DNA of 64,000 nt from Gemmatales bacterium (GTDB taxonomy: Bacteria; Planctomycetota; Planctomycetia; Gemmatales; HRBIN36), in assembly GCA_039809045.1 (NCBI GenBank), contig JBDHUG010000011.1, positions 16,556-80,555 of the forward strand, given 5' to 3'. Under the pieces are notes generated by a model. That model was not told the origin of the DNA. It saw nothing but the letters and a program-made list of their open reading frames with translations, and made no database searches. The position numbers and the translations under genes are program-made. Numbering within the stretch: the first letter of the stretch is position 1; every line of letters starts with the position of its first letter. Shown piece by piece: positions 49,663 through 60,362 of the stretch.

Positions 49663-50385
49663 TCAAGTTCGAGGCCGACGCATGTATTTTTCTAAAATGG
49701 CTTTTGCAGCGTCCGAAGTTGCTCGACTGTCAGATACTTTTTGTTTCACTTTGGTATCGGGTTTGGCATCACTCGCTTTGGCGTCTTCCTCAGGTTCAGC
49801 ATCTTCGGTGTTTGTTTGCGTCGCTTGATCTGCAATGGGCTGCATGATAGTGGTGCCAGAAGGTATCTCATTTGACCGAGTACTATCATCACCTTCAAGG
49901 TTAAAAAGCAGCTCAGCAATGTCGTCTTCTTCAGAGCCGCCGCCAGCATTTGCTGGAGTGGTAGGCAGTTTCTTCAGGGCTGGGTTACTTCCAGATCCAG
50001 TTGTGGTTAATTTTTTTTGTGTGTTCGTATCAGATAAAGTCGCGTTCAGTTTATCAGAAACTGTGTCAGAATTGGATGGAGAAGTGGGGGTCGGGACGAG
50101 TTTGACTCGAAAACAAAGCGGCCCCAATTTAAGCTCATCACCATCCCTGATTTCTGCTTCTCCCTTGACTTGAACCTGGTTAATGAGTGTTCCATTGGTA
50201 CTGCCGAAATCGCGGACATAAGCTTGCTCACCGCGAATGCAAATGGCACAATGCCGCTTACTTACCAGCGGACTGGCCGGGCGTAGTTGACAATCTGGAT
50301 CTCGACCAATCAAAAAATGCGCTTGTCGGATCGGGATTTCCTTTCCAGCCGGATTCCCTTGTGAAACCACCAAGCTCAACTTCAT
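49663..50385 (-). CDS. FHA-domain protein with an acidic disordered tail
   Basis: IGRDPDC, VSKRHC, DFGSTNGT. Confidence 0.9.
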   Translation of the reverse strand: MKLSLVVSQGNPAGKEIPIRQAHFLIGRDPDCQLRPASPLVSKRHCAICIRGEQAYVRDFGSTNGTLINQVQVKGEAEIRDGDELKLGPLCFRVKLVPTPTSPSNSDTVSDKLNATLSDTNTQKKLTTTGSGSNPALKKLPTTPANAGGGSEEDDIAELLFNLEGDDSTRSNEIPSGTTIMQPIADQATQTNTEDAEPEEDAKASDAKPDTKVKQKVSDSRATSDAAKAILEKYMRRPRT

Positions 50386-50743: not shown

Positions 50744-53700
50744 ATGAGCACAGGTCAATTCGAAGTTTTGATCGTGGGTGGTGGGTGTGCAGGACTCAGT
50801 GCTGCCATCGGGCTGGCTAAAACTGGCATTTCCGTGGCTGTCGTTGAGGCAGCTATTTACCCCGGTGCGGAAAATTGGTCGGGATGCGTTTACTTCTGTG
50901 AAAACCTGGTCGAGCCGGAGCTCCTTGGCCCCGAAGGCCTGCAACAACTTGCCTGGGAAAGGAGATTAGTTCGTCGCGGTGCATGGGTCGGCAACGGCCA
51001 AAGTTTGTTTGGCATATCCTACGAAAATGCCGCTTGTTTTCGCCATTGTTACACAGTGTTAAGGCCCATTTTTGACCATCACCTAGCGCAGATCGCCATG
51101 CAACACGGTGTGGTCTTGTTAAATCAAACCACCGCCGAGAGCCTCATTCGTGAAGGTCAACGCGTCATCGGCATCACCACCCAGCGCGGCCCGCTTTATG
51201 GCCGACTTGTTTTTTTGGCTGAGGGTGATGCTTCACACTTAGTCACGAAAGAGGGCTATGAACGCATTCCGCATGACCAAAAACATCCCAAGTATCTACA
51301 TGGAATCAAACAGGTACTCGAACTACCCCCAGAGTTGATTGAGCGCAATTTTGGTCTAAAGCCGGGCGAAGGTGCTGCGTGTGAAGTTATTTTGCGCAAT
51401 GCAAAGCTGCATGGGAAATCACTGCATCTAAATATGGGAGGCTTCATTTACACCAACCATGCTAGTCTGTCCATGGGTCTGGTGTTGCCCGCCGAGCATT
51501 TGCATGAGCACTTCGCTGGTGATCCGCATCTGCTACTGGAATGGTTTGAGAATCTGCCAGACTTGCAGCCTTGGTTCCGTGATGGCGTCCGCAGCGTCTT
51601 TGGAGCCAAGCTCATTCGCGGCGGGGGGACTCGCGAATTCCCGCAAATGGTCGATGATGGCTTGGCCATTGGCGGCGCGGCTACCGGGTTAGGCGTGGAT
51701 TTCCCTTACCCAAATTACACTGGCCCTGCCACACGCATGGGGTTGGAGTTGGTGCGAGCGGTGCATAAGATCCGCTCCCAAAAAGGGACCTATTCGGCTG
51801 CCGAACTGCAACAACATTATCTCCGACCTTTGAAAGCGACACGCTATTGGCAAGATGCTGCATTTCTTCGCGATTGGCCCGGTTATGTCGAGCGCACGCA
51901 CTTCTTTTTCGACCGCCAAGTGGATTTGCTTTTGGGCAGCGCACAATTACTGGCTCAAAAGGGCCAGGAAGAAAGTGCACGCTTCAATCATGTCACTGAC
52001 CTTTTGAAACAAGAATGGCTGTCCAAAGAGGCACAAGCGTCGATCCAACACGACCTTCATCACTTAGAGAAAGCGCTACCGATTAAGAGGGTATTCAAGC
52101 GACCACCGCTGCCACTGATGTTGGTCGAAAGCTGGCTGCACTTTGTTGGACAATTGACTGGTCTCAAAAAGCCAGCACCAGACGTGGGTCAAATTCGCTG
52201 GCACTACAGCGTTCGGGGGGAACCCATGCTCGAGCATGGTTTTCCCAGTATTATTCAGCAAACCATGGAACAAATGCAGCCAAGCCTGGCGCGGGCTGCT
52301 TATGAGCTGTATGCCAATGACAACACACCTTTACCCCAAAAAGTTAATCGAGCCCTTCAATCACTTAGACTGCATTTGCCCTGGGCAGCGCTGTTGCGGC
52401 TTTCTTGGCGTTTGCTGCCACAGGTTTGGCGCTTGTTCAAAAAATCCCCCGCCCTTGCACACCGCATTGACCTCGAACAACTGGCACCGCAACCCGACCT
52501 GACGCCCTGGCTTGCTCCAGCACAACAAAAATGGGAAGACCGTTTGGGCCGTCTAGGTTACTTGTCTGATCGGCGTTCACATATCCACGTGTATTGGCCT
52601 CAGCAATTGAATAACAAAAACAACATCACCGAAGCTGGCCTTTGGCATGTCTGTCCAGCTCATGTGTATGAGGCTCGCACCAACTCGTTGGGACAATTGC
52701 AAATCGTTGTGAATCACGAAAATTGCATCAAATGCGAAACCTGTTGGCGTACGAGCGACCTCGTCGATTGGGGTCGCGATGGCCTGCATCGCTTCATTTA
52801 TGCCGTGCAGTCTCCTGTGACGATCAAGCTCCTGGCCACTCAAGATGCACCGGAACTGCGTAAACCATTGTCCCCGGAGCAAACCGATCCTTGGCTTGAC
52901 GTCCGAGCCAATTCAACGAAACCGCCAAGAGAGATCCTATCGCACATCCACTCTCTTGAACGACAGCTTGATAACTTTATTTCCGCTCTTGGTGCCGAGC
53001 CGAGAACGATGGATGCCGCTCGCAGCCAGTTCTTAAGCAAGCTCGCAGCTTGGATTGATGCACAGGCGAAGCGATTACGAATCGACCTGGAACAACACCT
53101 TCCAAACAGGTTGCCTGAACATAAGGCTACCACTCAACCAAGCCATGAGCGTGACTTGTTCGCCGACATGACACAGCGGATCGGACACATCCAGCAATAC
53201 ATCGAACAAAAACGCTTTGCCTGGGCGGCCAGTGCGTGCAGACATATCCAGCAACACCACCTCCAAGGGCTCAAAGCGCTTTTGGGCTGCCCCCTTGCAG
53301 TTGACAGGTTGAATGACAACGCAGCGTGGGATCTACCACTGCAACCTATGTTGCAGGCGGATACGCAGCGTTCATCAGCCAACCGAGCGATTCAACCATG
53401 GCGTCAGCGGATTGAAGAGCTATGGGGACCTTACTTATGGCGTGAACTTGACCAAGGACACAAACTAACGCCGCCGCAAAATGAAGTATTGGCCGATGCT
53501 TTGGCCTATGTGCCTGAATTGGAATCTACGCAGCTCGATCAAACTCTGCACCCTGCGGCACGCAAGGAAATCTTAGCTGAATTGGGAAGGCGGGACCCTT
53601 CCATAGGTTATCGGTTTGCCCATCACTTATGGGTCCGCGATTTGTTACAGCTATTCGGCTCTGATATGCAACGCCATGCTTGGCGGCAACTCACTCTACA

Positions 53701-56700
53701 GAAGCAGTGGTCTGCTTACGTGAATCTTGACAATGGCTCCATTCAAAGCGACGGCTGCCGCGGTTCTGCAACCATGCTTCCACTTGTCGATGCTTACTTG
53801 ATTCGCATCCATGATCGACTGTTTTGGGTAACCGCCAAGGAATTAGGCAGTCAACTCCAACCCGTCATCGGCCTGGGGTTGCGTGGCACGCCTCTTTGTC
53901 AGATCGATTTGAACGATTTCCCATTACCCAACGATGCTGTGAAATTGGAACCCAACAAGGTATCAACGGCTTATGAAGTCATCAGTCAAACCGATCTGAT
54001 CGCTATCGCCCTGGGCATGGCCGATCAGTTAACCCTCCGTTGCACACAACATGCTGCCAATCGGGTTCAATTTCCAGGGATGTTTCATGATGAGCGCAGT
54101 CGCGATACCATTGGTAAATTTGGTGCAGTGAAGAAAATGTTGGCTGAGATGGGTGCGCATCGAATAGTGATCGAGACCCTTTGTTACAATCTATCACCGC
54201 AGGATTTTCAGCCTGATACCGTGAAGCGAGTAACGCTCGCTAAGGCAGCCACGGCCCAACTGCTGGGCACATCGCCTGGGAGCCTGTCATATAATGCCGG
54301 CCAGATTTTCGGCGGGACTGGCTATTCCGAAGACGACATCCTTTCCAAGTATTACCGCGATGCATCGGCGTGGCGGTTCCTGGCAGTGGATAGTCATCAA
54401 GCCATGCATTTGCATGGCCAACAACTGGCCCATGCTGCTTGTCATGAACGGGAATCGGCCTGGATGGAAGAGATTCAAGCAACTAACGTACTGCAGGGTG
54501 AAGCGGTAACGCTACTGCAGCAGATTGAAGACTTGCGTCAACCTTTGAACAAGATATCATCAGCGATTGCGGAAGCACGCGGTTGGGTCGATGCCTTCCT
54601 TTTTGCAAGCAAGTCGTTGCTGCTGCGATTATTCGCTCAATTAGCATCAGGGTTCGATTCAGAACTTACCTGGTCGATGTGGGAGGTGTGGCACACTTTC
54701 TTGCAACGATGGTTAGCCCGCTATTGGGAAATGATTCAACCATCCCCCATGAGCACTCGTTCACTCGAAGTCCAGGTGAATGGTTTTCAGTCTATCGATG
54801 ATTATCGTCAATTTCTGGCACAACCCATAAAGGCCTTGGTTCAGCCATCAGGCAAGCCTAATGTTTCTGATCCTGCCACAAAGAAAGCCCTGGCCTACCA
54901 GACTGGTGATTTCCTGGTCGGACCGATCCAACTCACATTGCCACGCTACACGCCTGAAATGATCGAAACCGATAAAACGCTTGCCGCCACAGATAGCCAA
55001 TTCCATGATCTGGTGATACAGCAATTCGGCTCATTAAGAAAAGAAATGCTCTTTGAACGCTACATTGAAGCCAACCATTTGCCTGATAATGCAGATTTAG
55101 ATTATTGCCGCCAGCACGGCTTTTTCCGCATGCCCATTCCCTCCAGCCTGGGTGGCGAAGGCAAGTTGAAAGCGGAATATTACAGCTTGGTCATGCAAAC
55201 GAATCAATTTGCCGACGCGACCATGTCTCTGCTCATACAGGCCAACACGAGCATCGGCACATCCCCCATATTGTTTGCCCGTGACAAGGACCTGCCCAAA
55301 GCGATCAAGGAATGCAAGCCCTTTGCACATGATGAAGAACTTCATGCCAAAGTTGGTTTGTTGCTCGATGCAATGGCCCAGCGTGTACATGTCCAAGATG
55401 TCGCTGGCGCTCAAGCCACACTTAAGGAATTGCAACCGCTGCTCGATAGCGCCATGAAATCGAGCGCTCTCAAACCTTGTCTTCAACCCCTCATCGATAT
55501 TTGGAAAAGTGTTACTCGAGCCGTGCCTTTAGGCGATTTGAAAAAAGCAAGCAAAGCGAAAGACTTGCCTGACGCCTGGCAAAAAAGCGTTGCTCTCGCA
55601 AAGGATCTGGTCAGCGAGTTGGACCTTCGACTCCAAGCCTGCGATTTAGGATTGCGCTGGATTGCCAGCGGGCAAATCTCCGCATTCGCTTTGACCGAAC
55701 CTTCGGCAGGTTCCGATACAGCTCGTGTGGCCACCCGGGCCAAGTTGGTTTCTGTACCTGTGACAAAGGATGACGATGGCGTGTTGTCCTTTCAACTTCC
55801 CGATGGCGGTGGCCGCCGTGTTCTACTCGATGCATCCCGACTTGAATTTCGACCGGATGGAGCGTTTTACCGTTATCAAGAGAATGCTGAGCCTGCGCGC
55901 ATCATGTTTGATGAATACGACTATGAAACCGATGATCCCAACCGCTTCCGCTATTACCAACATGGACAGCGAAAAGTTCCATTCACCGACATTGCCTACC
56001 TGCGCCAACGGGATGGACAAACCTGGTACGATTATTGGGAAATGACCGGCGCGAAGATGTGGATCACCAATGGCCGCATGTCGGGCATTATGAGCCTCTA
56101 CGCGAAGACAAGCCAAGGAGTGACCGGCTTCATCGTTGATCGGCATGCAGAAGGCTTTATTGTGGGCAAGGACGAAGCCAAAATGGGGCAAAACGGTTCC
56201 CCCACCAACGAAATCGCCTTGCAAGCTGTTCGTGTGCCAAAGGAAAACGTCTTGGGTCTGGAAGGCCGGGGGCAAGTCAATGCTCTCGAAACACTGAATG
56301 TCGGCCGGGCAGGTTTAGCGATGTCATCGGTCAGCCAGATGCGCACGCTGATCGAGATGGGACAAAACCATTGTCAACAACCTGCCGCCAACAGTAAGCC
56401 CCTTTCCCATCACCTGGCTATCGTTCGTGAAGAAACCTGGATTGCCGAAAGTCTGGCTTACATGGTGATCGGACAGTTTGAACATCCATCGACCCAAGCC
56501 GTGCGCATGGAGTCCGCCATCGCCAAGATGCTGGTTAGCGAGTTGCTGCATAGCAGCATCGAGCACACAGAAGTCTTGTTTGGCTTGGCCAGTCAAACGC
56601 GACAACATCTCGTGGAAAAACGCAAACGGGATGCCCGCATCATCAATATTTACGAAGGCACCAATGAGGTGCAGCGTTTCCTGCTTGTAAAAGAACTGGT

Positions 56701-59086
56701 GGGCGATGTGCTTCCGCGATGGCAACAAGAGCCCATTGCTTTGAACAGTGACCCAATCAGTCAGCAATTGCTGGATCTGCATCAACGATTCCGCGAGCAA
56801 CTACAAGCTGCCGCCCAACTTTTTGGGCAAGGCCTGTGGCAGAATCCGAATCTGCAACCAACCGTTTTCTGGTTGGCCGAAGCTTCGGCCTGGCTCTTGG
56901 CAGCGCAAGCAGTGGCAGGTCGGCTCTTTTGGTTGAAAGGATGCAAGGCGAAGTTAAAGCAACCGTCCTGCACAGAAACGGGCCAGCTGGCCCTTGCACG
57001 ATGCCTGAACGAAGTTCGTTGGCGGTTGCAGTGGTTCGCGGAAGAATGGCAACGCATCGAAGCATGCCAATATGCAGCCACGATCCGTACAGCCGATTTG
57101 ATGTTCGACCGCTTGCAACATGCCTCACACTATGGTGTCACTTGGTCCAGCGTTATTGAAAAACCCCTTCATGTGCTCGTCGTACTTGAACCCAACGTTG
57201 CAGCCGTTCCACAACCGGCTGTACACGATGGCCAATTGCTGGAATCTTATTGGTCATTGAGTGAAGCTGATGGAGCCGCCCTCGAAGCTGCCTTACGGCT
57301 GCGTGATCAAGCTCCTAAAGAAGTCCACATCACTGCTGCCATGGTGGGGGGACGTTGTTTACTTTCTCTCATGCGTGAGATTGCAGCTCGAGGTGTCGAG
57401 ACACTGCTCGTGCAGGCACCAAGAGATGGGATATCTGTAACCGCTGCTGCTGAAGCTTTGACTCAAGTCATGCGCGAGCGATCATGGGATTTGATTATTG
57501 GACCATCGAGTGCAAAAGATCAAGCCGATGGGCTTTTAGTTCCACTTATGACTTGCTCATTGAAATTACCCTATGCCGGCTCCACCACACAGTTAGCCGT
57601 ACGACACCTTCAAGAGTCAAGTGAATTGCTGCTTCTACAAAGCAATGATCAAACTCGGCAGCGCAACCTGCCCGCGGCAGTTACTCTTGAACCCGGGCTC
57701 GCTTTGCGGTCATACTCGACTCAGGGATATCTGAAGGGGCTTGCCAACCCTTGCCAAATCAAACCTTGGCCTTTGGAAGTCTTGCCCCAAACACTTACCT
57801 GGAAATCGATCAAGCCAGCGGGCACCTTGCCTTCAGATGCGCTCGCCCCGAGCCGCCTCGAACCTTGTGCGGCAGCCGATTGGCTTCTGCAGTCCTTGGG
57901 CGTAAAGGGAGAACGCAATGCACCTGCTGAACCGTTAGCAGTATCCTTTTCTGATACAAGCGGGCCGTGCCGCATCGATCATGCTGCCGCCTTGGCCATC
58001 ATCGCCTGTGATGCAGACGGTCGTCTGAGCCATGCTGCGCTTGCTTGCTCGCGTGCCGCACAGAGGCAAGCCAATTCAGCCGCTTGTCTGTTGCTCACCC
58101 CTGCCAATACTGAAGCACAGGAAAAAGCCACACAAACCTTACTCAGCTTAGGCTTAAGTCACATCCATATCGTTCAGCACCCTTTGCTGACCGAGTCTGA
58201 AGTATTGCGTTCACAAGTGCTGCAAGCAGCCTGGCCAAACTTTAAACAGGAACCTGAATTCATCGTAGCCGAGCGTTGGGCAGACCTGGCCTTGGCTACA
58301 ATCCGCCGAACTCAATCGTCGCAGCCCAACTTTGAACCACGGTTGAAACGATTGGCACTTGGTAAAGACTTCATCGGTGCAGAAAGCAGCCGACATGCTG
58401 CCAAACTGCTCGCTCGCCAAACCTGGTCCAAGCCTAGTTTCAAAAAGCCCTTATGGATCACCGTGACGGACGATGTTGAGCTCGAAGGCGACCCTGCGGC
58501 TATGGTTGAAACTGCATCGCCGCCAGTCGTCTTTCGCTGGTCGCCAAACCTCGACCGATTGTTTGGCCAGCAAGACATGGTTCGGCTACTCGGTGAACTG
58601 AAAAGTGCAACTGGAACCATACGTCTCAGTGAAGCGGAATACATCATTGACGTGGGTTACGGCGTCGCCAATCGCGATGGCTACGAAGCCGTAATCGAAC
58701 CGCTTGAAAAAGCTCTGAAACAAATAGGCGTCAAGCAAGTGCAGATCGGCGGCTCACGCAAGGTAACGGAAGAACTGAACATCTTGCCTATCGATCGACA
58801 GATTGGACAGTCGGGTGTTTCCGTGAACCCCAAGATTCTGCTGGCCATTGGTATCAGCGGTGCTCCCCAGCATTTGCAGTACATTGGCCCACGCGCCCAT
58901 ATTCTGTGCTTTAACAAAGACCCTGAAGCCCCACTGATGACTTTAAACCAGCGACAACCCAAGCCGATCATTTATCCCATTGTTGGTGATCTGTTTCAAA
59001 CCGTGCCTGCGTTTGTTCATGCTTTACAACAAGATGGCAACTCAACCGCCCAAACGGAACCCAGCCGTACTGATGGATCGACATAA
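50744..59086 (+). CDS. Giant flavoprotein fusion: FixC/ETF-QO, Fe-S, acyl-CoA dehydrogenase x2, ETF-beta, ETF-alpha
   Basis: Single 2780-aa ORF: IVGGGCAG/GAENWSG (FixC); CPAHVYE...NCIKCETC (Fe-S); QIFGGTGY (ACAD1); FALTEPSAGSD, GAKMWITNG, YEGTNEVQR (ACAD2); AALEAALRLRD (EtfB); GGSRKV...QIGQSG...GISGAPQH...NKDPEAP (EtfA). Confidence 0.88.
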   Translation: MSTGQFEVLIVGGGCAGLSAAIGLAKTGISVAVVEAAIYPGAENWSGCVYFCENLVEPELLGPEGLQQLAWERRLVRRGAWVGNGQSLFGISYENAACFRHCYTVLRPIFDHHLAQIAMQHGVVLLNQTTAESLIREGQRVIGITTQRGPLYGRLVFLAEGDASHLVTKEGYERIPHDQKHPKYLHGIKQVLELPPELIERNFGLKPGEGAACEVILRNAKLHGKSLHLNMGGFIYTNHASLSMGLVLPAEHLHEHFAGDPHLLLEWFENLPDLQPWFRDGVRSVFGAKLIRGGGTREFPQMVDDGLAIGGAATGLGVDFPYPNYTGPATRMGLELVRAVHKIRSQKGTYSAAELQQHYLRPLKATRYWQDAAFLRDWPGYVERTHFFFDRQVDLLLGSAQLLAQKGQEESARFNHVTDLLKQEWLSKEAQASIQHDLHHLEKALPIKRVFKRPPLPLMLVESWLHFVGQLTGLKKPAPDVGQIRWHYSVRGEPMLEHGFPSIIQQTMEQMQPSLARAAYELYANDNTPLPQKVNRALQSLRLHLPWAALLRLSWRLLPQVWRLFKKSPALAHRIDLEQLAPQPDLTPWLAPAQQKWEDRLGRLGYLSDRRSHIHVYWPQQLNNKNNITEAGLWHVCPAHVYEARTNSLGQLQIVVNHENCIKCETCWRTSDLVDWGRDGLHRFIYAVQSPVTIKLLATQDAPELRKPLSPEQTDPWLDVRANSTKPPREILSHIHSLERQLDNFISALGAEPRTMDAARSQFLSKLAAWIDAQAKRLRIDLEQHLPNRLPEHKATTQPSHERDLFADMTQRIGHIQQYIEQKRFAWAASACRHIQQHHLQGLKALLGCPLAVDRLNDNAAWDLPLQPMLQADTQRSSANRAIQPWRQRIEELWGPYLWRELDQGHKLTPPQNEVLADALAYVPELESTQLDQTLHPAARKEILAELGRRDPSIGYRFAHHLWVRDLLQLFGSDMQRHAWRQLTLQKQWSAYVNLDNGSIQSDGCRGSATMLPLVDAYLIRIHDRLFWVTAKELGSQLQPVIGLGLRGTPLCQIDLNDFPLPNDAVKLEPNKVSTAYEVISQTDLIAIALGMADQLTLRCTQHAANRVQFPGMFHDERSRDTIGKFGAVKKMLAEMGAHRIVIETLCYNLSPQDFQPDTVKRVTLAKAATAQLLGTSPGSLSYNAGQIFGGTGYSEDDILSKYYRDASAWRFLAVDSHQAMHLHGQQLAHAACHERESAWMEEIQATNVLQGEAVTLLQQIEDLRQPLNKISSAIAEARGWVDAFLFASKSLLLRLFAQLASGFDSELTWSMWEVWHTFLQRWLARYWEMIQPSPMSTRSLEVQVNGFQSIDDYRQFLAQPIKALVQPSGKPNVSDPATKKALAYQTGDFLVGPIQLTLPRYTPEMIETDKTLAATDSQFHDLVIQQFGSLRKEMLFERYIEANHLPDNADLDYCRQHGFFRMPIPSSLGGEGKLKAEYYSLVMQTNQFADATMSLLIQANTSIGTSPILFARDKDLPKAIKECKPFAHDEELHAKVGLLLDAMAQRVHVQDVAGAQATLKELQPLLDSAMKSSALKPCLQPLIDIWKSVTRAVPLGDLKKASKAKDLPDAWQKSVALAKDLVSELDLRLQACDLGLRWIASGQISAFALTEPSAGSDTARVATRAKLVSVPVTKDDDGVLSFQLPDGGGRRVLLDASRLEFRPDGAFYRYQENAEPARIMFDEYDYETDDPNRFRYYQHGQRKVPFTDIAYLRQRDGQTWYDYWEMTGAKMWITNGRMSGIMSLYAKTSQGVTGFIVDRHAEGFIVGKDEAKMGQNGSPTNEIALQAVRVPKENVLGLEGRGQVNALETLNVGRAGLAMSSVSQMRTLIEMGQNHCQQPAANSKPLSHHLAIVREETWIAESLAYMVIGQFEHPSTQAVRMESAIAKMLVSELLHSSIEHTEVLFGLASQTRQHLVEKRKRDARIINIYEGTNEVQRFLLVKELVGDVLPRWQQEPIALNSDPISQQLLDLHQRFREQLQAAAQLFGQGLWQNPNLQPTVFWLAEASAWLLAAQAVAGRLFWLKGCKAKLKQPSCTETGQLALARCLNEVRWRLQWFAEEWQRIEACQYAATIRTADLMFDRLQHASHYGVTWSSVIEKPLHVLVVLEPNVAAVPQPAVHDGQLLESYWSLSEADGAALEAALRLRDQAPKEVHITAAMVGGRCLLSLMREIAARGVETLLVQAPRDGISVTAAAEALTQVMRERSWDLIIGPSSAKDQADGLLVPLMTCSLKLPYAGSTTQLAVRHLQESSELLLLQSNDQTRQRNLPAAVTLEPGLALRSYSTQGYLKGLANPCQIKPWPLEVLPQTLTWKSIKPAGTLPSDALAPSRLEPCAAADWLLQSLGVKGERNAPAEPLAVSFSDTSGPCRIDHAAALAIIACDADGRLSHAALACSRAAQRQANSAACLLLTPANTEAQEKATQTLLSLGLSHIHIVQHPLLTESEVLRSQVLQAAWPNFKQEPEFIVAERWADLALATIRRTQSSQPNFEPRLKRLALGKDFIGAESSRHAAKLLARQTWSKPSFKKPLWITVTDDVELEGDPAAMVETASPPVVFRWSPNLDRLFGQQDMVRLLGELKSATGTIRLSEAEYIIDVGYGVANRDGYEAVIEPLEKALKQIGVKQVQIGGSRKVTEELNILPIDRQIGQSGVSVNPKILLAIGISGAPQHLQYIGPRAHILCFNKDPEAPLMTLNQRQPKPIIYPIVGDLFQTVPAFVHALQQDGNSTAQTEPSRTDGST

Positions 59087-59624: not shown

Positions 59625-60362
59625 ATGCAATGCATCAACACCGTCATCCTCGGGATCATTTGGTTCGCCCTGTTGTGCAGTCCGTGGCTCAGGGCTGAAG
59701 ATACACCGGACGATGCACGCACTGCTCTGCAACCGTTCAATGAGTGGATCGGCGCATGGAAAGCAACGGGCACTCCAGAATCGGGAAGCACCGCGGAGCG
59801 GCAACGGGGTTTTTGGAAAGAGACCTGGCAATTCGGCTGGCAGTTCAAGGGCAAGCAATGCTGGATTCAGATCTCAATTAAAGATGGCAAGCACTATCAA
59901 AGCGGTTCAATTCATTACCTAGAAAAAGCAAATGCGTATGAACTCACGCTCATGCCGAAAGAGAAAAACGCCCCCGAAGAAAAATACGTTGGCCAATTCG
60001 CTAGCAACAATCGCCGATTTATTGCCGAAAGAACCGATGAAGAACAAAAAGAAGTTCATCGCATAACCTTGCAACTCATTGGCGAAATCCGTGCTTCTTA
60101 TTCGATGGAACGCAGACCAGTTTCCCGTAAGCAGTTCAGCAAACAATACACGGTCACTGCAACGCGTGAAGGTGAATCATTAGCCGGCTCCAAGAAAAGC
60201 AATCAACCCGAATGCGTGGTGAGTGGCGGTTTGGGCACAATCGCCGTGAGTTACAAAGGGATGACTTATTATGTCTGCTGTACTGGTTGCAGAGATGCAT
60301 TCAATGAAGACCCTGAGAAGTACATCAAAGAGTTTGAAACAAAGAAAAAGAAGGACAAGTAA
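59625..60362 (+). CDS. Exported protein with a C-terminal YHS/TRASH-like domain
   Basis: Signal peptide; ECVVSGG...YKGMTYYVCCTGCRDAFNEDPEKY. Confidence 0.78.
   Translation: MQCINTVILGIIWFALLCSPWLRAEDTPDDARTALQPFNEWIGAWKATGTPESGSTAERQRGFWKETWQFGWQFKGKQCWIQISIKDGKHYQSGSIHYLEKANAYELTLMPKEKNAPEEKYVGQFASNNRRFIAERTDEEQKEVHRITLQLIGEIRASYSMERRPVSRKQFSKQYTVTATREGESLAGSKKSNQPECVVSGGLGTIAVSYKGMTYYVCCTGCRDAFNEDPEKYIKEFETKKKKDK

What the first reader, a model, noticed from the sequence alone, without database searches (positions are those of the whole stretch)
50744..59086. An entire acyl-CoA to ETF to ETF-QO to quinone chain encoded as one 2780-aa polypeptide
Seen: one uninterrupted 8343-nt ORF with these motifs in order. 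(1) FixC/ETF-QO FAD domain, ~50744-52000. (2) 4-Cys Fe-S domain, ~52530-52800. (3) ACAD-like module 1, ~53400-54420. (4) ACAD module 2, ~54950-57100. (5) ETF-beta-like domain, ~57160-57800. (6) ETF-alpha with an intact FAD-binding C-domain, ~57970-59030. Established: these activities are normally separate proteins (ACAD, EtfA/EtfB or FixB/FixA, and ETF-QO or FixCX), with ETF acting as a diffusible shuttle. Inference: this is a self-contained, hard-wired acyl-CoA:quinone oxidoreductase, with a tethered ETF insulating one substrate-specific dehydrogenation from the general ETF pool. I know pairwise fusions but do not recall a characterised fusion of the full chain. The gene stands alone, with no beta-oxidation neighbours.
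Basis: partly seen in the sequence, partly recalled or inferred. Interest (0 to 1): 0.92.

Follow-up and report, generated by a model that had tools for sequence, protein, structure and literature searches.

The report
Single-chain acyl-CoA-to-quinone electron chain
One 2780-residue bacterial protein joins an acyl-CoA dehydrogenase, its electron-transfer flavoprotein and the membrane quinone reductase that are normally separate proteins; it belongs to a widespread family for which I found no published study.

Summary
Window 50744-59086 (+) is one 2780-aa ORF. Its domain order is FixC-type FAD domain, one 4-Cys Fe-S domain, ACAD-like module 1, ACAD module 2, EtfB-like domain, EtfA. It is not a misassembly. 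All 120 best relatives listed are 2726-2957 aa, and contigs from four sequencing runs show no indels or joints. The family is patchy: 12 of 300 sampled genomes of the window's phylum, 30 of 150 of a Nitrospirota-labelled phylum.

Cofactor and catalytic residues of ACAD2, the Fe-S cluster and the EtfA FAD domain are invariant. Two refinements follow. Module 1 lacks the catalytic Glu but keeps the residues that bind a partner's FAD, as in the beta subunit of alpha2beta2 ACADs. The EtfB loop that binds AMP or the bifurcating FAD matches neither known motif, which argues against bifurcation. Most relatives carry a hydrophobic segment between FixC and the Fe-S domain.

In the window's order, ETF was found only inside this fusion. 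The hard-wired acyl-CoA:(mena)quinone oxidoreductase reading is supported in silico but unproven. Nine literature searches found no description of the architecture. Partial fusions are characterised. New variant of a known kind; interest 0.6.

The parts
50744..59086 (+). Whole ORF, 2780 aa plus stop (P0001).
   Evidence: Full-length relatives. Contigs of four runs without indels or joints.
50744..51943 (+). FixC / ETF-QO-type FAD domain (residues 1-400), with the GxGxxG dinucleotide fold at residues 10-15.
   Evidence: Pfam DAO/FAD_oxidored. NCBIfam FixC-type models, 119 and 110 bits. PDB 7koe_C, E 1.4e-33, over residues 5-396. Mean top-residue frequency 0.79-0.92 per 40-residue block in 120 relatives.
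51944..52573 (+). Family-specific insertion (residues 401-610). It includes the position (about residues 540-575, nt 52361-52468) where most relatives have a hydrophobic, membrane-anchor-like segment. In this protein the segment is an amphipathic W/R/L-rich stretch.
   Evidence: A Kyte-Doolittle 19-residue window of at least 1.6 occurs at this position in 95 of 120 relatives (median 1.93); the window's protein scores 0.68. In a wider range, 23 of 31 divergent members reach 1.6.
52574..52813 (+). Fe-S domain (residues 611-690) with four Cys: C637, C661, C664, C667. One [4Fe-4S] site of the ETF-QO/FixX type.
   Evidence: Pfam Fer4_ETF_QO, 25.0 bits against a cut-off of 24. The four Cys are invariant in 120/120 and 31/31. 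Apart from C48 and C102 in the FixC domain, no other Cys is invariant.
52814..53380 (+). Linker region (residues 691-879). No family assigned and not modelled.
   Evidence: No Pfam hit. Lower conservation, 0.40-0.70.
53381..54763 (+). ACAD-like module 1 (residues 880-1340). It has the alpha-beta-alpha ACAD layout plus extra helices. There is no catalytic Glu and no TEPxxGSD flavin motif. It keeps R1107-x-Q-F-x-G and Q1187-x-F-G-G-T-G-Y.
   Evidence: Pfam Acyl-CoA_dh_2, 22.8 bits. PF00441, 29.1 bits. PDB SCAD, E 5.8e-4, aligned over residues 1044-1210. AF2 secondary-structure order. Residue counts. Predicted interface with module 2.
54941..56743 (+). ACAD module 2 (residues 1400-2000), the catalytic dehydrogenase. 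Motifs: TEPSAGSD (1651-1658), WITN (1773-1776), YEGTNE with E1971. Two large insertions at about residues 1520-1640 and 1680-1760.
   Evidence: Pfam N, M and C domains. VIA-align Z 30.4, rmsd 1.9 A, 364 residues aligned to SCAD 2vig_B. Residues invariant in 120/120 and 31/31.
56744..57118 (+). C-terminal helical extension of ACAD2 (residues 2001-2125), as in VLCAD/ACAD9-type enzymes.
   Evidence: VLCAD 2uxw aligns over model residues 504-1200 (475 aligned, Z 29.9, rmsd 2.6 A). Foldseek's best hit is 2uxw, E 7.7e-16.
57161..57838 (+). EtfB-like domain (ETF domain III, residues about 2140-2365). The nucleotide 'zipper' loop reads KDQADG (2258-2263).
   Evidence: Pfam ETF. VIA-align Z 22.6-23.7 to EtfB chains. 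Alignments to 1efp_B and 5ol2_B. Motif counts.
57947..58540 (+). EtfA domain I (residues about 2402-2599). Weakly conserved and not seen by Pfam.
   Evidence: AF2 model, pLDDT mostly above 85. EtfA chain 3cls_D aligns over model residues 295-642, Z 16.2, but with rmsd 10.4 A. Conservation 0.40-0.56.
58568..59050 (+). EtfA domain II (residues about 2609-2769), the FAD-binding 'head'. Motifs: GGSRKV, QIGQSG, GISGAPQH, FNKDPEAP.
   Evidence: Pfam ETF_alpha, 58.2 bits. Alignments to CarE 6fah_A, 5ow0_A, 4kpu_A and human 1efv_A. Residues invariant in 120/120.

Best explanation
The gene encodes a membrane-associated, single-chain acyl-CoA:(mena)quinone oxidoreductase.

Inferred path:
1. An acyl-CoA is dehydrogenated at ACAD module 2, with E1971 as catalytic base.
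2. The FAD of module 2 is held on its flavin side by module 2 and on its ADP side by the non-catalytic module 1. The two modules pack like one ACAD dimer with a single FAD, as in alpha2beta2 ACADs.
3. Electrons leave one at a time through the FAD of the fused EtfA head domain. The fused EtfB/EtfA-domain-I base serves only as a scaffold, with no AMP and no second, bifurcating FAD.
4. Electrons then pass to the single [4Fe-4S] cluster, to the FixC-type FAD, and to quinone at the membrane. The quinone is probably menaquinone.

Shown here: the domains, their order, the conservation of the cofactor and catalytic residues, and the predicted folds. Inferred: cofactor content, the electron path, its direction, and the acceptor. 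Unknown: the substrate.
For: - Domain order and identities.
- Close relatives (120 of them): the Fe-S Cys (637, 661, 664, 667), the ACAD2 flavin and catalytic residues (T1651, E1652, S1657, D1658, W1773, T1775, N1776, E1971) and the EtfA-head FAD residues (R2672, Q2686, Q2689, S2705, Q2709, H2710) are all invariant in 120/120.
- Divergent members (31 of them, about 30% identity): the Cys, the ACAD2 residues and the ACAD1 residues R1107, Q1109, F1110, Q1187, G1190, G1191 are 31/31. The EtfA-head residues are 30-31 of 31.
- Complementary decay of the two ACAD modules. Module 1 keeps R1107/Q1109/F1110 and Q1187/G1190/G1191 (120/120, 31/31). These align with the RxxFG and QxxGGxGY stretches of SCAD. 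Residue 1214, which by my manual extension of the register corresponds to the catalytic Glu, is G/A/L in 119 of 120. No Glu is among the four commonest residues there in the 31 divergent members. In the ACAD9 alignment, module 2 has QPAAN and GLASQ at the corresponding stretches.
- Precedent for that split: in ChsE4-ChsE5 the alpha subunit binds the isoalloxazine and carries the Glu, and the beta subunit binds the ADP-ribose (PMC11153573, passage read).
- The AF2 model of residues 880-2079 has mean pLDDT 88.3 and pTM 0.88.
- Modules 1 and 2 folded as separate chains score 0.74, against 0.00 for the best of 3 controls. That mark was reached by 58 of 80 solved complexes and 2 of 110 mismatched pairs. 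The runs agree in at least 73% of contacts, and partner pLDDT is at least 83. The interface includes Q1187 and G1190-1191 of module 1 against residues 1968-1976 and W1773 of module 2. ACAD dimers are solved, so this pass may reflect likeness to them.
- ETF: all three domains are modelled (pLDDT 85.1, pTM 0.79). EtfB chains match at Z about 23.
- No bifurcation signature. The loop that reads DGDTAQ in bifurcating ETFs and DDDxNQ in canonical ones (PMC8958531, passage read) reads KDQADG here. It matches neither pattern in 0/120 and 0/31.
- Membrane association: a hydrophobic segment lies between FixC and the Fe-S domain in 95/120 and 23/31.
- The own genome (66% complete) has two MqnA-family (futalosine menaquinone pathway) frames and a haem-copper oxidase subunit I.
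- The ETF is dedicated. In 60 genomes of the window's order (each at least 90% complete), ETF_alpha was found in 4, once each. Three are in frames of 2785-2930 aa and one is in a 338-aa frame in the fragmented G020 assembly. ACAD middle domains were found in 51 of the 60, in frames of about 400 and about 600-650 aa.
Against: - No biochemical or expression data exist. No RNA run holding the gene was listed.
- In the window's own protein and its closest relatives, the anchor-position segment is amphipathic rather than hydrophobic (0.68). Membrane binding of this copy is therefore less certain.
- Quinone-site residues were not examined.
- The FixC part resembles the FixC of bifurcating EtfABCX more than the classical ETF-QO.
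- ACAD module 1 rests on weak matches: 22.8 bits against a cut-off of 22.7, and E 5.8e-4 to SCAD. A profile-profile comparison of module 1 with module 2 was not significant (probability 0.29, E 0.21).
- I could not inspect coordinates. The dimer-like packing is read from pTM and from the contact list, and that contact list may be recalled from solved ACAD dimers.
- Loss of the zipper motif does not prove that no nucleotide binds.
- With menaquinone, acyl-CoA oxidation is not favourable at standard potentials (recalled values), so direction is open.
- No beta-oxidation neighbours point to a substrate.
Confidence: 0.68

Rival explanations
1. Same wiring, opposite direction. The protein is a menaquinol-dependent enoyl-CoA reductase, used as an electron sink or in lipid metabolism rather than for acyl-CoA oxidation.
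For: All redox steps in ACAD/ETF/ETF-QO chains are reversible in principle. Menaquinone biosynthesis genes are present. By recalled standard potentials (menaquinone about -74 mV, enoyl-/acyl-CoA about -10 mV), reduction of enoyl-CoA by menaquinol is downhill. The gene has no beta-oxidation neighbours.
Against: The genome has an aerobic oxidase, which would pull quinol oxidation. It also has a thiolase and two enoyl-CoA hydratase-family frames, which fits a catabolic role. Menaquinone-using aerobes are known to run beta-oxidation through ETF (recalled). Nothing in the sequence sets the direction.
Confidence: 0.12
2. A fused electron-bifurcating Fix/EtfABCX-like enzyme that uses NADH, with the ACAD module as a second high-potential acceptor or donor.
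For: The quinone-reductase half is FixC/FixX-like; the best solved relative is 7koe_C of the bifurcating EtfABCX. The fold of the EtfB-like domain matches bifurcating EtfB chains (4kpu_B Z 23.5, 6fah_B 23.3, 7koe_A 22.9) as well as canonical ones (1efv_B 23.0, 1o96_A 23.4).
Against: The DGDTAQ loop that defines bifurcating ETFs (PMC8958531) is absent in 0/120 and 0/31, and the loop is hypervariable. R2533 is my candidate, by manual alignment only, for the domain-I Arg that pairs with that loop. It is kept in 113/120 close relatives but only 4/31 divergent ones. EtfB and EtfA domain I are the least conserved parts of the protein (0.38-0.68). The opposite would be expected for a bifurcating site.
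Confidence: 0.04
3. The fused ETF is not insulated. It also accepts electrons from the stand-alone ACADs of the cell, so the protein acts as the organism's general ETF plus ETF-QO with one resident ACAD.
For: In the own genome (66% complete) the only ETF_alpha is the one in this gene, while at least two stand-alone ACAD frames exist (407 aa and 661 aa). The same holds for the 4 ETF-bearing genomes of the order sample.
Against: 47 of the 51 order genomes that have ACAD frames had no ETF_alpha. Stand-alone ACADs in this lineage evidently do without ETF. At least 9 of 12 fusion-bearing genomes elsewhere in the phylum also have a free EtfA-sized frame. That would be redundant if the fusion served as the general ETF. 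Whether the EtfB recognition-loop region is kept was not tested.
Confidence: 0.12
4. Module 2 acts on something other than a plain fatty acyl-CoA. Candidates are a bulky lipid-CoA, as for alpha2beta2 steroid-side-chain ACADs, or a carrier-protein-bound acyl group.
For: The one-FAD heterodimer layout is known from ACADs for bulky steroid-CoA substrates (PMC11153573). Module 2 has two large family-specific insertions. Carrier-protein-acting ACAD folds (AnaB 4irn_A Z 29.2, PigA 6af6 Z 28.5, ColB1 7xp7_C Z 29.8) score about as well as acyl-CoA enzymes.
Against: The best sequence matches are acyl-CoA enzymes: NCBIfam FadE (149 bits) and acryloyl-CoA reductase (117 bits), and VLCAD/ACAD9. No carrier-protein or steroid-catabolic genes lie nearby. 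This refines the best explanation rather than excluding it.
Confidence: 0.2

Closest known systems
Classical three-protein chain: ACAD, then ETF (EtfA/EtfB), then ETF-QO (mitochondria and many bacteria)
   Same: The same module types and the same inferred electron order: ACAD FAD, ETF FAD, [4Fe-4S], FAD, quinone. The four-Cys single cluster matches the Pfam ETF-QO Fe-S model.
   Different: Here everything is one polypeptide. ETF cannot diffuse. The EtfB loop that binds AMP in canonical ETFs (DDDxNQ) is not kept. The flavoprotein half is FixC-like rather than a classical ETF-QO.
FixABCX / EtfABCX (solved: Thermotoga maritima 7KOE)
   Same: It is the best solved relative of residues 5-396 (7koe_C, E 1.4e-33). 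The FixX-like Fe-S domain follows. It is an ETF partner and is described as membrane-associated in the title of Feng et al. 2021, seen only in a reference list.
   Different: EtfABCX is a four-subunit, NADH-using, bifurcating complex without an ACAD. This family lacks the bifurcating-ETF loop motif and has only four invariant Fe-S-domain Cys, enough for one cluster. From recall, FixX/EtfX is described with two clusters.
Alpha2beta2 heteromeric ACADs (ChsE4-ChsE5, ChsE1-ChsE2, IpdE1-IpdE2)
   Same: The labour is divided between a catalytic chain (flavin ring, Glu, substrate site) and a non-catalytic chain that binds the ADP-ribose of the FAD (PMC11153573). Modules 2 and 1 show the same pattern at motif level.
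   Different: Here the two chains are fused in tandem, with the non-catalytic one first, and are embedded in a larger protein. Homology with the actinobacterial pairs was not tested, and the likeness may be convergent.
Butyryl-CoA reductase BCR of Fusobacterium nucleatum (Bcd domain + EtfA C-terminal domain + rubredoxin), working with a flavodiiron protein
   Same: It is a characterised hard-wired ACAD-to-ETF-FAD fusion that couples acyl-CoA oxidation directly to a terminal acceptor (PMC12288474, passages read).
   Different: BCR has only the EtfA head domain, uses rubredoxin and a flavodiiron protein to reduce O2, and has no FixC/Fe-S/quinone module and no second ACAD module.
Monomeric fused EtfB-EtfA ETF of Sulfolobus acidocaldarius (SaETF)
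   Same: The fusion order is the same, EtfB followed by EtfA in one chain (PMC12042025, passages read).
   Different: SaETF is a free-standing, two-FAD, NADH-reactive bifurcating ETF. The ETF part here lacks the bifurcating motif and is fused to its partners.
VLCAD / ACAD9 / bacterial FadE-type long ACADs
   Same: These are the best fold matches for module 2 together with its C-terminal helical extension (2uxw: 475 residues aligned, Z 29.9, rmsd 2.6 A; Foldseek E 7.7e-16). The best NCBIfam hit is FadE.
   Different: Those enzymes are homodimers with one FAD per chain. Here the partner is a degenerate in-chain module, and module 2 has lost the RxxFG and GGxGY stretches.

Membership tests
ETF-QO / FixCX quinone reductases | FAD-binding FixC/ETF-QO-type flavoprotein domain | tested here: met
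   7koe_C, E 1.4e-33, over residues 5-396. NCBIfam FixC-type models score 119 and 110 bits, below their full-length cut-offs of 466 and 610. Pfam FAD-fold families match.
ETF-QO / FixCX quinone reductases | [4Fe-4S] cluster ligated by four Cys | tested here: met
   Pfam Fer4_ETF_QO, 25.0 bits against cut-off 24. C637, C661, C664 and C667 are invariant in 120/120 and 31/31. Actual cluster binding cannot be shown here.
ETF-QO / FixCX quinone reductases | Membrane association and a quinone site | tested here: inconclusive
   A hydrophobic segment is present in 95/120 and 23/31 relatives. The window's own copy is amphipathic (0.68). Quinone-contact residues were not examined.
Acyl-CoA dehydrogenases (module 2) | Three-domain ACAD fold with flavin motifs and a catalytic Glu | tested here: met
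   Pfam N, M and C domains. Z 30.4, rmsd 1.9 A, 364 residues aligned to 2vig_B. TEPSAGSD, WITN and YEGTNE are invariant.
Acyl-CoA dehydrogenases (module 1) | Catalytic Glu and own flavin-ring motifs | tested here: not met
   Position 1214 corresponds to the catalytic Glu by my manual extension of the register. It is G/A/L in 119 of 120 and P/L/A/G in the commonest classes of the 31 divergent members. No TEPxxGSD-like stretch is visible in residues 880-1340 (read). The ACAD fold is indicated only by weak matches and by the AF2 secondary-structure order.
Alpha2beta2-type one-FAD ACAD pairs | The non-catalytic partner supplies the residues that bind the ADP part of the catalytic partner's FAD | tested here: met
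   At motif level only. R1107/Q1109/F1110 and Q1187/G1190/G1191 are invariant and lie in the predicted interface next to residues 1968-1976 of module 2. The score is 0.74 against 0.00 for the best control; the mark was reached by 58 of 80 solved and 2 of 110 mismatched pairs. The pass may reflect likeness to solved ACAD dimers. Common descent with ChsE-type pairs was not tested.
Electron transfer flavoprotein | Three-domain fold (EtfB domain III, EtfA domains I and II) with an FAD site in domain II | tested here: met
   AF2 pLDDT 85.1. EtfB chains match at Z about 23. EtfA chain 3cls_D matches at Z 16.2, with rmsd 10.4 A. The GGSRKV, QIGQSG and GISGAPQH motifs align to solved EtfA chains and are invariant.
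Canonical (group 1) ETF | AMP-binding loop DDDxNQ in EtfB | tested here: not met
   The loop reads KDQADG. A canonical-like pattern is found in 0/120 and 0/31. The motif is taken from PMC8958531.
Bifurcating (group 2) ETF / FixAB | Bifurcating-FAD loop DGDTAQ in EtfB, and NADH reactivity | tested here: not met
   A bifurcating-like pattern is found in 0/120 and 0/31. NADH reactivity cannot be tested with these tools.

The most novel reading that the evidence does not exclude
This is a new class of respiratory dehydrogenase. It is a roughly 305-kDa single chain in which ETF has become an internal swinging domain whose base no longer binds AMP or FAD. It is wired between a one-FAD pseudo-heterodimeric ACAD and a monotopic FixCX-type quinone reductase. 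In the window's order it is the only ETF, while ordinary ACADs there work without any ETF. The one-FAD ACAD layout and the large insertions suggest a dedicated, possibly bulky, lipid-CoA substrate rather than general beta-oxidation.
Probability: 0.35. Interest if true: 0.75.

Novelty: new variant of a known kind. Interest (0 to 1): 0.6.

Why it matters
If the reading holds, nature has built the whole acyl-CoA-to-quinone electron path as one protein.

- **A tractable object for ETF mechanics.** How the ETF head domain moves between donor and acceptor is usually studied in transient complexes. A fixed-stoichiometry single chain would suit cryo-EM and kinetics.
- **A natural test of the AMP site.** It would show whether ETF's structural AMP becomes dispensable once the subunits are covalently linked.
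- **A second, fused example of a one-FAD ACAD pair.** This would add to the alpha2beta2 cases.
- **Ecology.** The family is common in a Nitrospirota-labelled phylum (30 of 150 sampled genomes) and patchy in Planctomycetota. Both are abundant in wastewater and soils. The family carries only generic automatic names, so a metabolic capacity is probably being overlooked in genome-based models.
- **An open question exposed.** Most genomes of the window's order have ACADs but no detectable ETF. What accepts their electrons?

Tried and rejected
**Misassembly or a chimeric ORF.** Rejected: full-length relatives exist, and contigs of four runs show no indels or joints.

**Split forms.** Frames of 1397, 1524 and 1688 aa in G070, G236 and G322 looked like split genes. 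They are cut by contig ends of 4192, 30600 and 5067 bases.

**Conserved gene neighbourhood.** ORFs of 13 loci were clustered by BLASTP. The 13 loci are the window, 10 loci from anonymous genomes, L010 and L011. Only one pair was shared, between L114 and L115, two genomes of one genus.

**Named close relatives.** It returned mostly ordinary ACADs, and only L010 and L011 were full-length fusions.

**Profile-profile comparison of module 1 with module 2.** Not significant (probability 0.29, E 0.21). I used only the register of that alignment, together.

**Fold searches.**
- They could not separate bifurcating from canonical ETF; Z values are tied within 1.
- For the tandem ACAD model they covered only module 2 (model residues 507-1113). 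Module 1's fold was therefore not tested by fold search.

**Expression.** No RNA holder was listed.

**Bifurcation.** Considered and put at low odds.

**Regions without a model.** No full-length model or cofactor distances could be made.

**Literature.**
- looked for the architecture and found no description of it.
- Searches were for background.
- Garcia Costas et al. 2017, the ETF classification paper, is not held. I saw it only as a reference, and its groups could include such fusions.
- Supplements are closed. Figures S10-S11 of PMC12042025 (sequence-similarity networks of fused ETFs) may bear on novelty.

Full report
**The observation**

Window 50744-59086 (+) is a single ATG-started ORF of 2780 codons. 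At about 50% G+C an open frame of this length has a chance of roughly 1e-58 (my arithmetic). GC content (0.48-0.54) does not differ from the flanks.

Pfam finds the following, in order:
- a FAD dinucleotide fold at the N-terminus;
- Fer4_ETF_QO at residues 611-667;
- a weak ACAD C-terminal-domain hit at 1087-1210;
- a complete ACAD, with N, M and C domains, at 1439-1983;
- ETF at 2170-2286;
- ETF_alpha at 2628-2712.

NCBIfam adds FixC-type models over residues 1-389. The best solved relative of residues 5-396 is FixC of the Thermotoga EtfABCX complex (7koe_C, E 1.4e-33).

**Real gene, not an assembly artefact**

A length-restricted homologue search found 395 proteins with E of 0.001 or less among 8000 scored candidates. 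The best 120 listed are all 2726-2957 aa and 42-64% identical. Of these, 117 cover 98-100% of the query; the other three cover 53-55% by best local alignment.

Logan contigs of four runs from four studies, all activated sludge or wastewater by their labels, lie on the gene. Nearly all are at least 99% alike, and there is no insertion, deletion or joint. Single contigs bridge every domain junction. Two of the four runs come from studies that also hold possible source samples, and two do not.

**Distribution**

The few named relatives are MAGs labelled Gemmatales, Gemmataceae or Planctomycetia.

| Sample | Query | Result |
|---|---|---|
| 1.84 billion cluster representatives | family-specific middle part (residues 401-1400) | 202 hits at E of 0.001 or less; 71 at 1e-30 or less |
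| 300 genomes of the window's phylum | same | 12 match |
| 60 genomes of the window's order, each at least 90% complete | ETF_alpha | 4 match: three frames of 2785-2930 aa and one 338-aa fragment |
| 150 genomes of the phylum of L011 | corresponding part of L011 | 30 match, mostly in frames of 2610-2720 aa |

In the order sample, one search suggests one further fragment, a 2146-aa frame in G045.

Full-length versions at about 30% identity occur in a Nitrospirota-labelled MAG (L011, 2663 aa) and in an unclassified bacterium (L010, 2716 aa). Both have the same Pfam order. More compact versions of 2297 and 2476 aa keep the order too. The architecture is thus old or mobile, and it is maintained.

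**Conservation of the working parts**

I checked 120 close relatives and 31 divergent ones. The residues below are unchanged in 120/120. In the divergent set they are 31/31, except the EtfA-head residues, which are 30-31 of 31.
- The four Cys: 637, 661, 664, 667.
- The ACAD2 flavin and catalytic residues: TEPSAGSD, WITN, and E1971 in YEGTNE.
- The EtfA-head FAD residues: R2672, Q2686, Q2689, S2705, Q2709, H2710.

K2673 and S2690 show conservative changes. The head domain aligns motif for motif with solved EtfA chains.

The FixC part is among the best conserved (0.79-0.92 per 40-residue block). The least conserved parts are the EtfB-like domain and EtfA domain I (0.38-0.68).

**ACAD module 1 is a partner, not a second enzyme**

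Module 1 aligns weakly to SCAD, from the end of the beta domain through the C-terminal domain (E 5.8e-4). That alignment places its RVQFPG and YNAGQIFGGTGY stretches on the RxxFG and QxxGGxGY stretches of ACADs. These residues (R1107, Q1109, F1110, Q1187, G1190, G1191) are invariant.

Position 1214 corresponds to the catalytic Glu. I obtained this by extending the register by hand. It is G, A or L in 119 of 120, and I see no TEPxxGSD-like motif in module 1.

Module 2 shows the reverse pattern. Aligned to ACAD9, it has QPAAN where RKQFN stands and GLASQ where GGLGY stands.

This division is what is described for alpha2beta2 ACADs. There the alpha chain binds the flavin ring and carries the Glu, and the beta chain binds the ADP-ribose of the FAD (PMC11153573, passage read).

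Two predictions fit this:
- An AlphaFold2 model of residues 880-2079 is confident as one body (pLDDT 88.3, pTM 0.88). Module 1 shows helices, then strands, then helices, as an ACAD does.
- Folded as two separate chains, the modules score 0.74 against 0.00 for the best of three controls. That mark was reached by 58 of 80 solved complexes and 2 of 110 mismatched pairs. The runs agree in at least 73% of contacts, and partner pLDDT is at least 83. Q1187 and G1190-1191 of module 1 touch residues 1968-1976 and W1773 of module 2.

ACAD dimers are solved, so this pass may reflect that likeness.

Against the reading: a profile-profile comparison of the two modules was not significant, and fold searches covered only module 2.

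Module 2 itself matches ACADs at Z about 30 (rmsd 1.9-2.1 A over about 365 residues). With its C-terminal extension it matches VLCAD and ACAD9 over about 470 residues.

**The ETF part and the question of bifurcation**

The model of residues 2120-2780 (pLDDT 85.1, pTM 0.79) has all three ETF domains.
- EtfB chains match at Z 22.6-23.7. Canonical and bifurcating ones are tied.
- An EtfA chain matches at Z 16.2, with rmsd 10.4 A.

Fold therefore cannot decide between the two ETF types, but sequence can. The EtfB loop that clamps the phosphate(s) of AMP or of the bifurcating FAD reads DGDTAQ in 216 bifurcating ETFs and DDDxNQ in 449 canonical ones (PMC8958531, passage read). By the alignments to 1efp_B and 5ol2_B, the loop here reads KDQADG. 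In the family it is hypervariable. None of 120 and none of 31 members has either pattern.

R2533 is my candidate, by manual alignment only, for the domain-I Arg that pairs with this loop. It is kept in 113/120 close relatives but in only 4/31 divergent ones.

I infer that the ETF base has become a scaffold without a nucleotide. The covalent link would make the AMP 'glue' unnecessary, and the enzyme would not bifurcate. This is an inference from motif loss, not a demonstration.

**Membrane and acceptor**

Between the FixC domain and the Fe-S domain lies a family-specific insertion. At the position of residues about 540-575, 95 of 120 relatives have a 19-residue window with Kyte-Doolittle mean of at least 1.6 (median 1.93). 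So do 23 of 31 divergent members.

A segment in the middle of a cytoplasmic redox protein fits a monotopic anchor, such as a re-entrant or in-plane helix. That is my interpretation.

The window's own protein and its nearest relatives instead have an amphipathic W/R/L-rich stretch (0.68). Membrane binding of this copy is thus less certain.

The own genome (66% complete) has two MqnA-family frames and a haem-copper oxidase subunit I. It therefore probably has a menaquinone-based aerobic chain. It also has a thiolase, two enoyl-CoA hydratase-family frames and a weak 3-hydroxyacyl-CoA dehydrogenase hit.

**Relation to other ETFs and ACADs in the cell**

In the own genome the only ETF_alpha domain is in this gene, while stand-alone ACAD frames of 407 and 661 aa exist.

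In the order sample, 51 of 60 genomes have ACAD middle domains in frames of about 400 or about 600-650 aa. Only 4 of 60 have any ETF_alpha, and there it is the fusion. The stand-alone ACADs of this lineage evidently do without ETF, which argues that the fused ETF serves its own ACAD.

Elsewhere in the phylum a free EtfA is common: 233 of 300 genomes, mostly in frames of about 330 aa. At least 9 of the 12 fusion-bearing genomes also show such a frame. So does the Nitrospirota-labelled genome G361. There the fusion is a separate, dedicated chain alongside the general ETF.

**Context**

The neighbours are the following:
- an ABC transporter;
- an amidohydrolase;
- a MutY-like glycosylase;
- an FHA protein;
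- a NUDIX hydrolase;
- a YHS-domain protein;
- CinA;
- a trypsin-like protease.

None is shared among 13 loci, apart from one pair between two genomes of one genus. The substrate cannot be read from context.

**What is known**

Nine full-text searches were run. Seven aimed at the architecture, and they found no description of it.

The nearest characterised fusions are:
- the Fusobacterium butyryl-CoA reductase, made of Bcd, the EtfA head and rubredoxin, working with a flavodiiron protein (PMC12288474, passages read);
- the monomeric EtfB-EtfA ETF of Sulfolobus (PMC12042025, passages read).

The ETF classification paper of 2017 is not held, and supplements are closed. I therefore cannot exclude that the architecture is listed somewhere. 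In databases the family bears only automatic names: 'acyl-CoA dehydrogenase family protein' and 'electron transfer flavoprotein-quinone oxidoreductase'.

**Verdict**

Two refinements apply: a one-FAD pseudo-heterodimeric ACAD, and an ETF base without the nucleotide motif. One correction applies: this is a widespread family, not a singular gene.

It is a new variant of a known kind of system. Confidence in the hard-wired acyl-CoA:quinone oxidoreductase reading is 0.68. Direction, substrate and membrane binding of this particular copy remain open.

Noticed in passing
Proteins P0149, P0159, P0174, P0181, P0152 (1638-1713 aa) and P0176, P0177, P0187, P0225, P0257 (1397-1459 aa), all: Two shorter classes related to the family. 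For P0149, one search shows FixC, Fe-S and linker (42% identity over 869 residues), then a module-1-like part, then a degenerate ACAD C-domain without YEGTNE, and finally the EtfB-like domain, where the protein ends. P0176 ends just before the EtfB-like domain. Pfam finds no ACAD or ETF in the two scanned, P0149 and P0176. The other members were grouped only by length and similar C-terminal ends. They could be reduced paralogues or parts of split systems. Their gene contexts could not be fetched.
   Followed up: partly
Window 52361-52468 (residues about 540-575): The window's protein and its closest relatives (P0002, P0007-P0009, P0013) have an amphipathic, Trp/Arg-rich stretch where 95 of 120 relatives have a hydrophobic segment. 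This sub-clade may bind the membrane differently, or not at all.
   Followed up: partly
60 genomes of the window's order: ACAD domains were found in 51 of 60 genomes, but ETF_alpha in only 4 of 60, and there only inside the fusion. In the rest of the phylum sample a free EtfA is common (233 of 300). What takes electrons from the stand-alone ACADs of this order is unexplained.
   Followed up: partly
L023 8553-15773 and L040 8585-15590 (Balneolaceae-labelled contigs): An unfused cluster. Its ORF sizes fit etfB (256/257 aa), etfA (324 aa), fixC (459/441 aa), a gap, and two ACAD-sized genes (392/393 and 402/405 aa). tblastn matched it across the query. It is a possible split counterpart of the fusion. 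The ORFs were not scanned against Pfam.
   Followed up: no
Window 49663-50385 (-): A 240-aa protein with an N-terminal FHA domain (65 bits) followed by a long low-complexity, Thr/Ser/Asp/Lys-rich tail. It is transcribed divergently from the giant gene across a 358-bp spacer.
   Followed up: no
Window 59625-60362 (+): A 245-aa protein with an N-terminal hydrophobic, signal-like start and a C-terminal YHS (metal-binding type) domain (36 bits). It sits just downstream, after a NUDIX gene.
   Followed up: no
G000:C6:11658-11780 (own genome, outside the window): A 2189-aa open frame with a sub-threshold Thiolase_N hit (22.5 bits). It may be a ketosynthase-containing multidomain protein.
   Followed up: no
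Window 56627-56661: Contigs of three runs match only this 35-base stretch (the YEGTNE-coding region of ACAD2) and continue with unrelated sequence on both sides (table 7). This is most simply a conserved ACAD motif shared with other organisms in the samples, not a variant of this gene.
   Followed up: no
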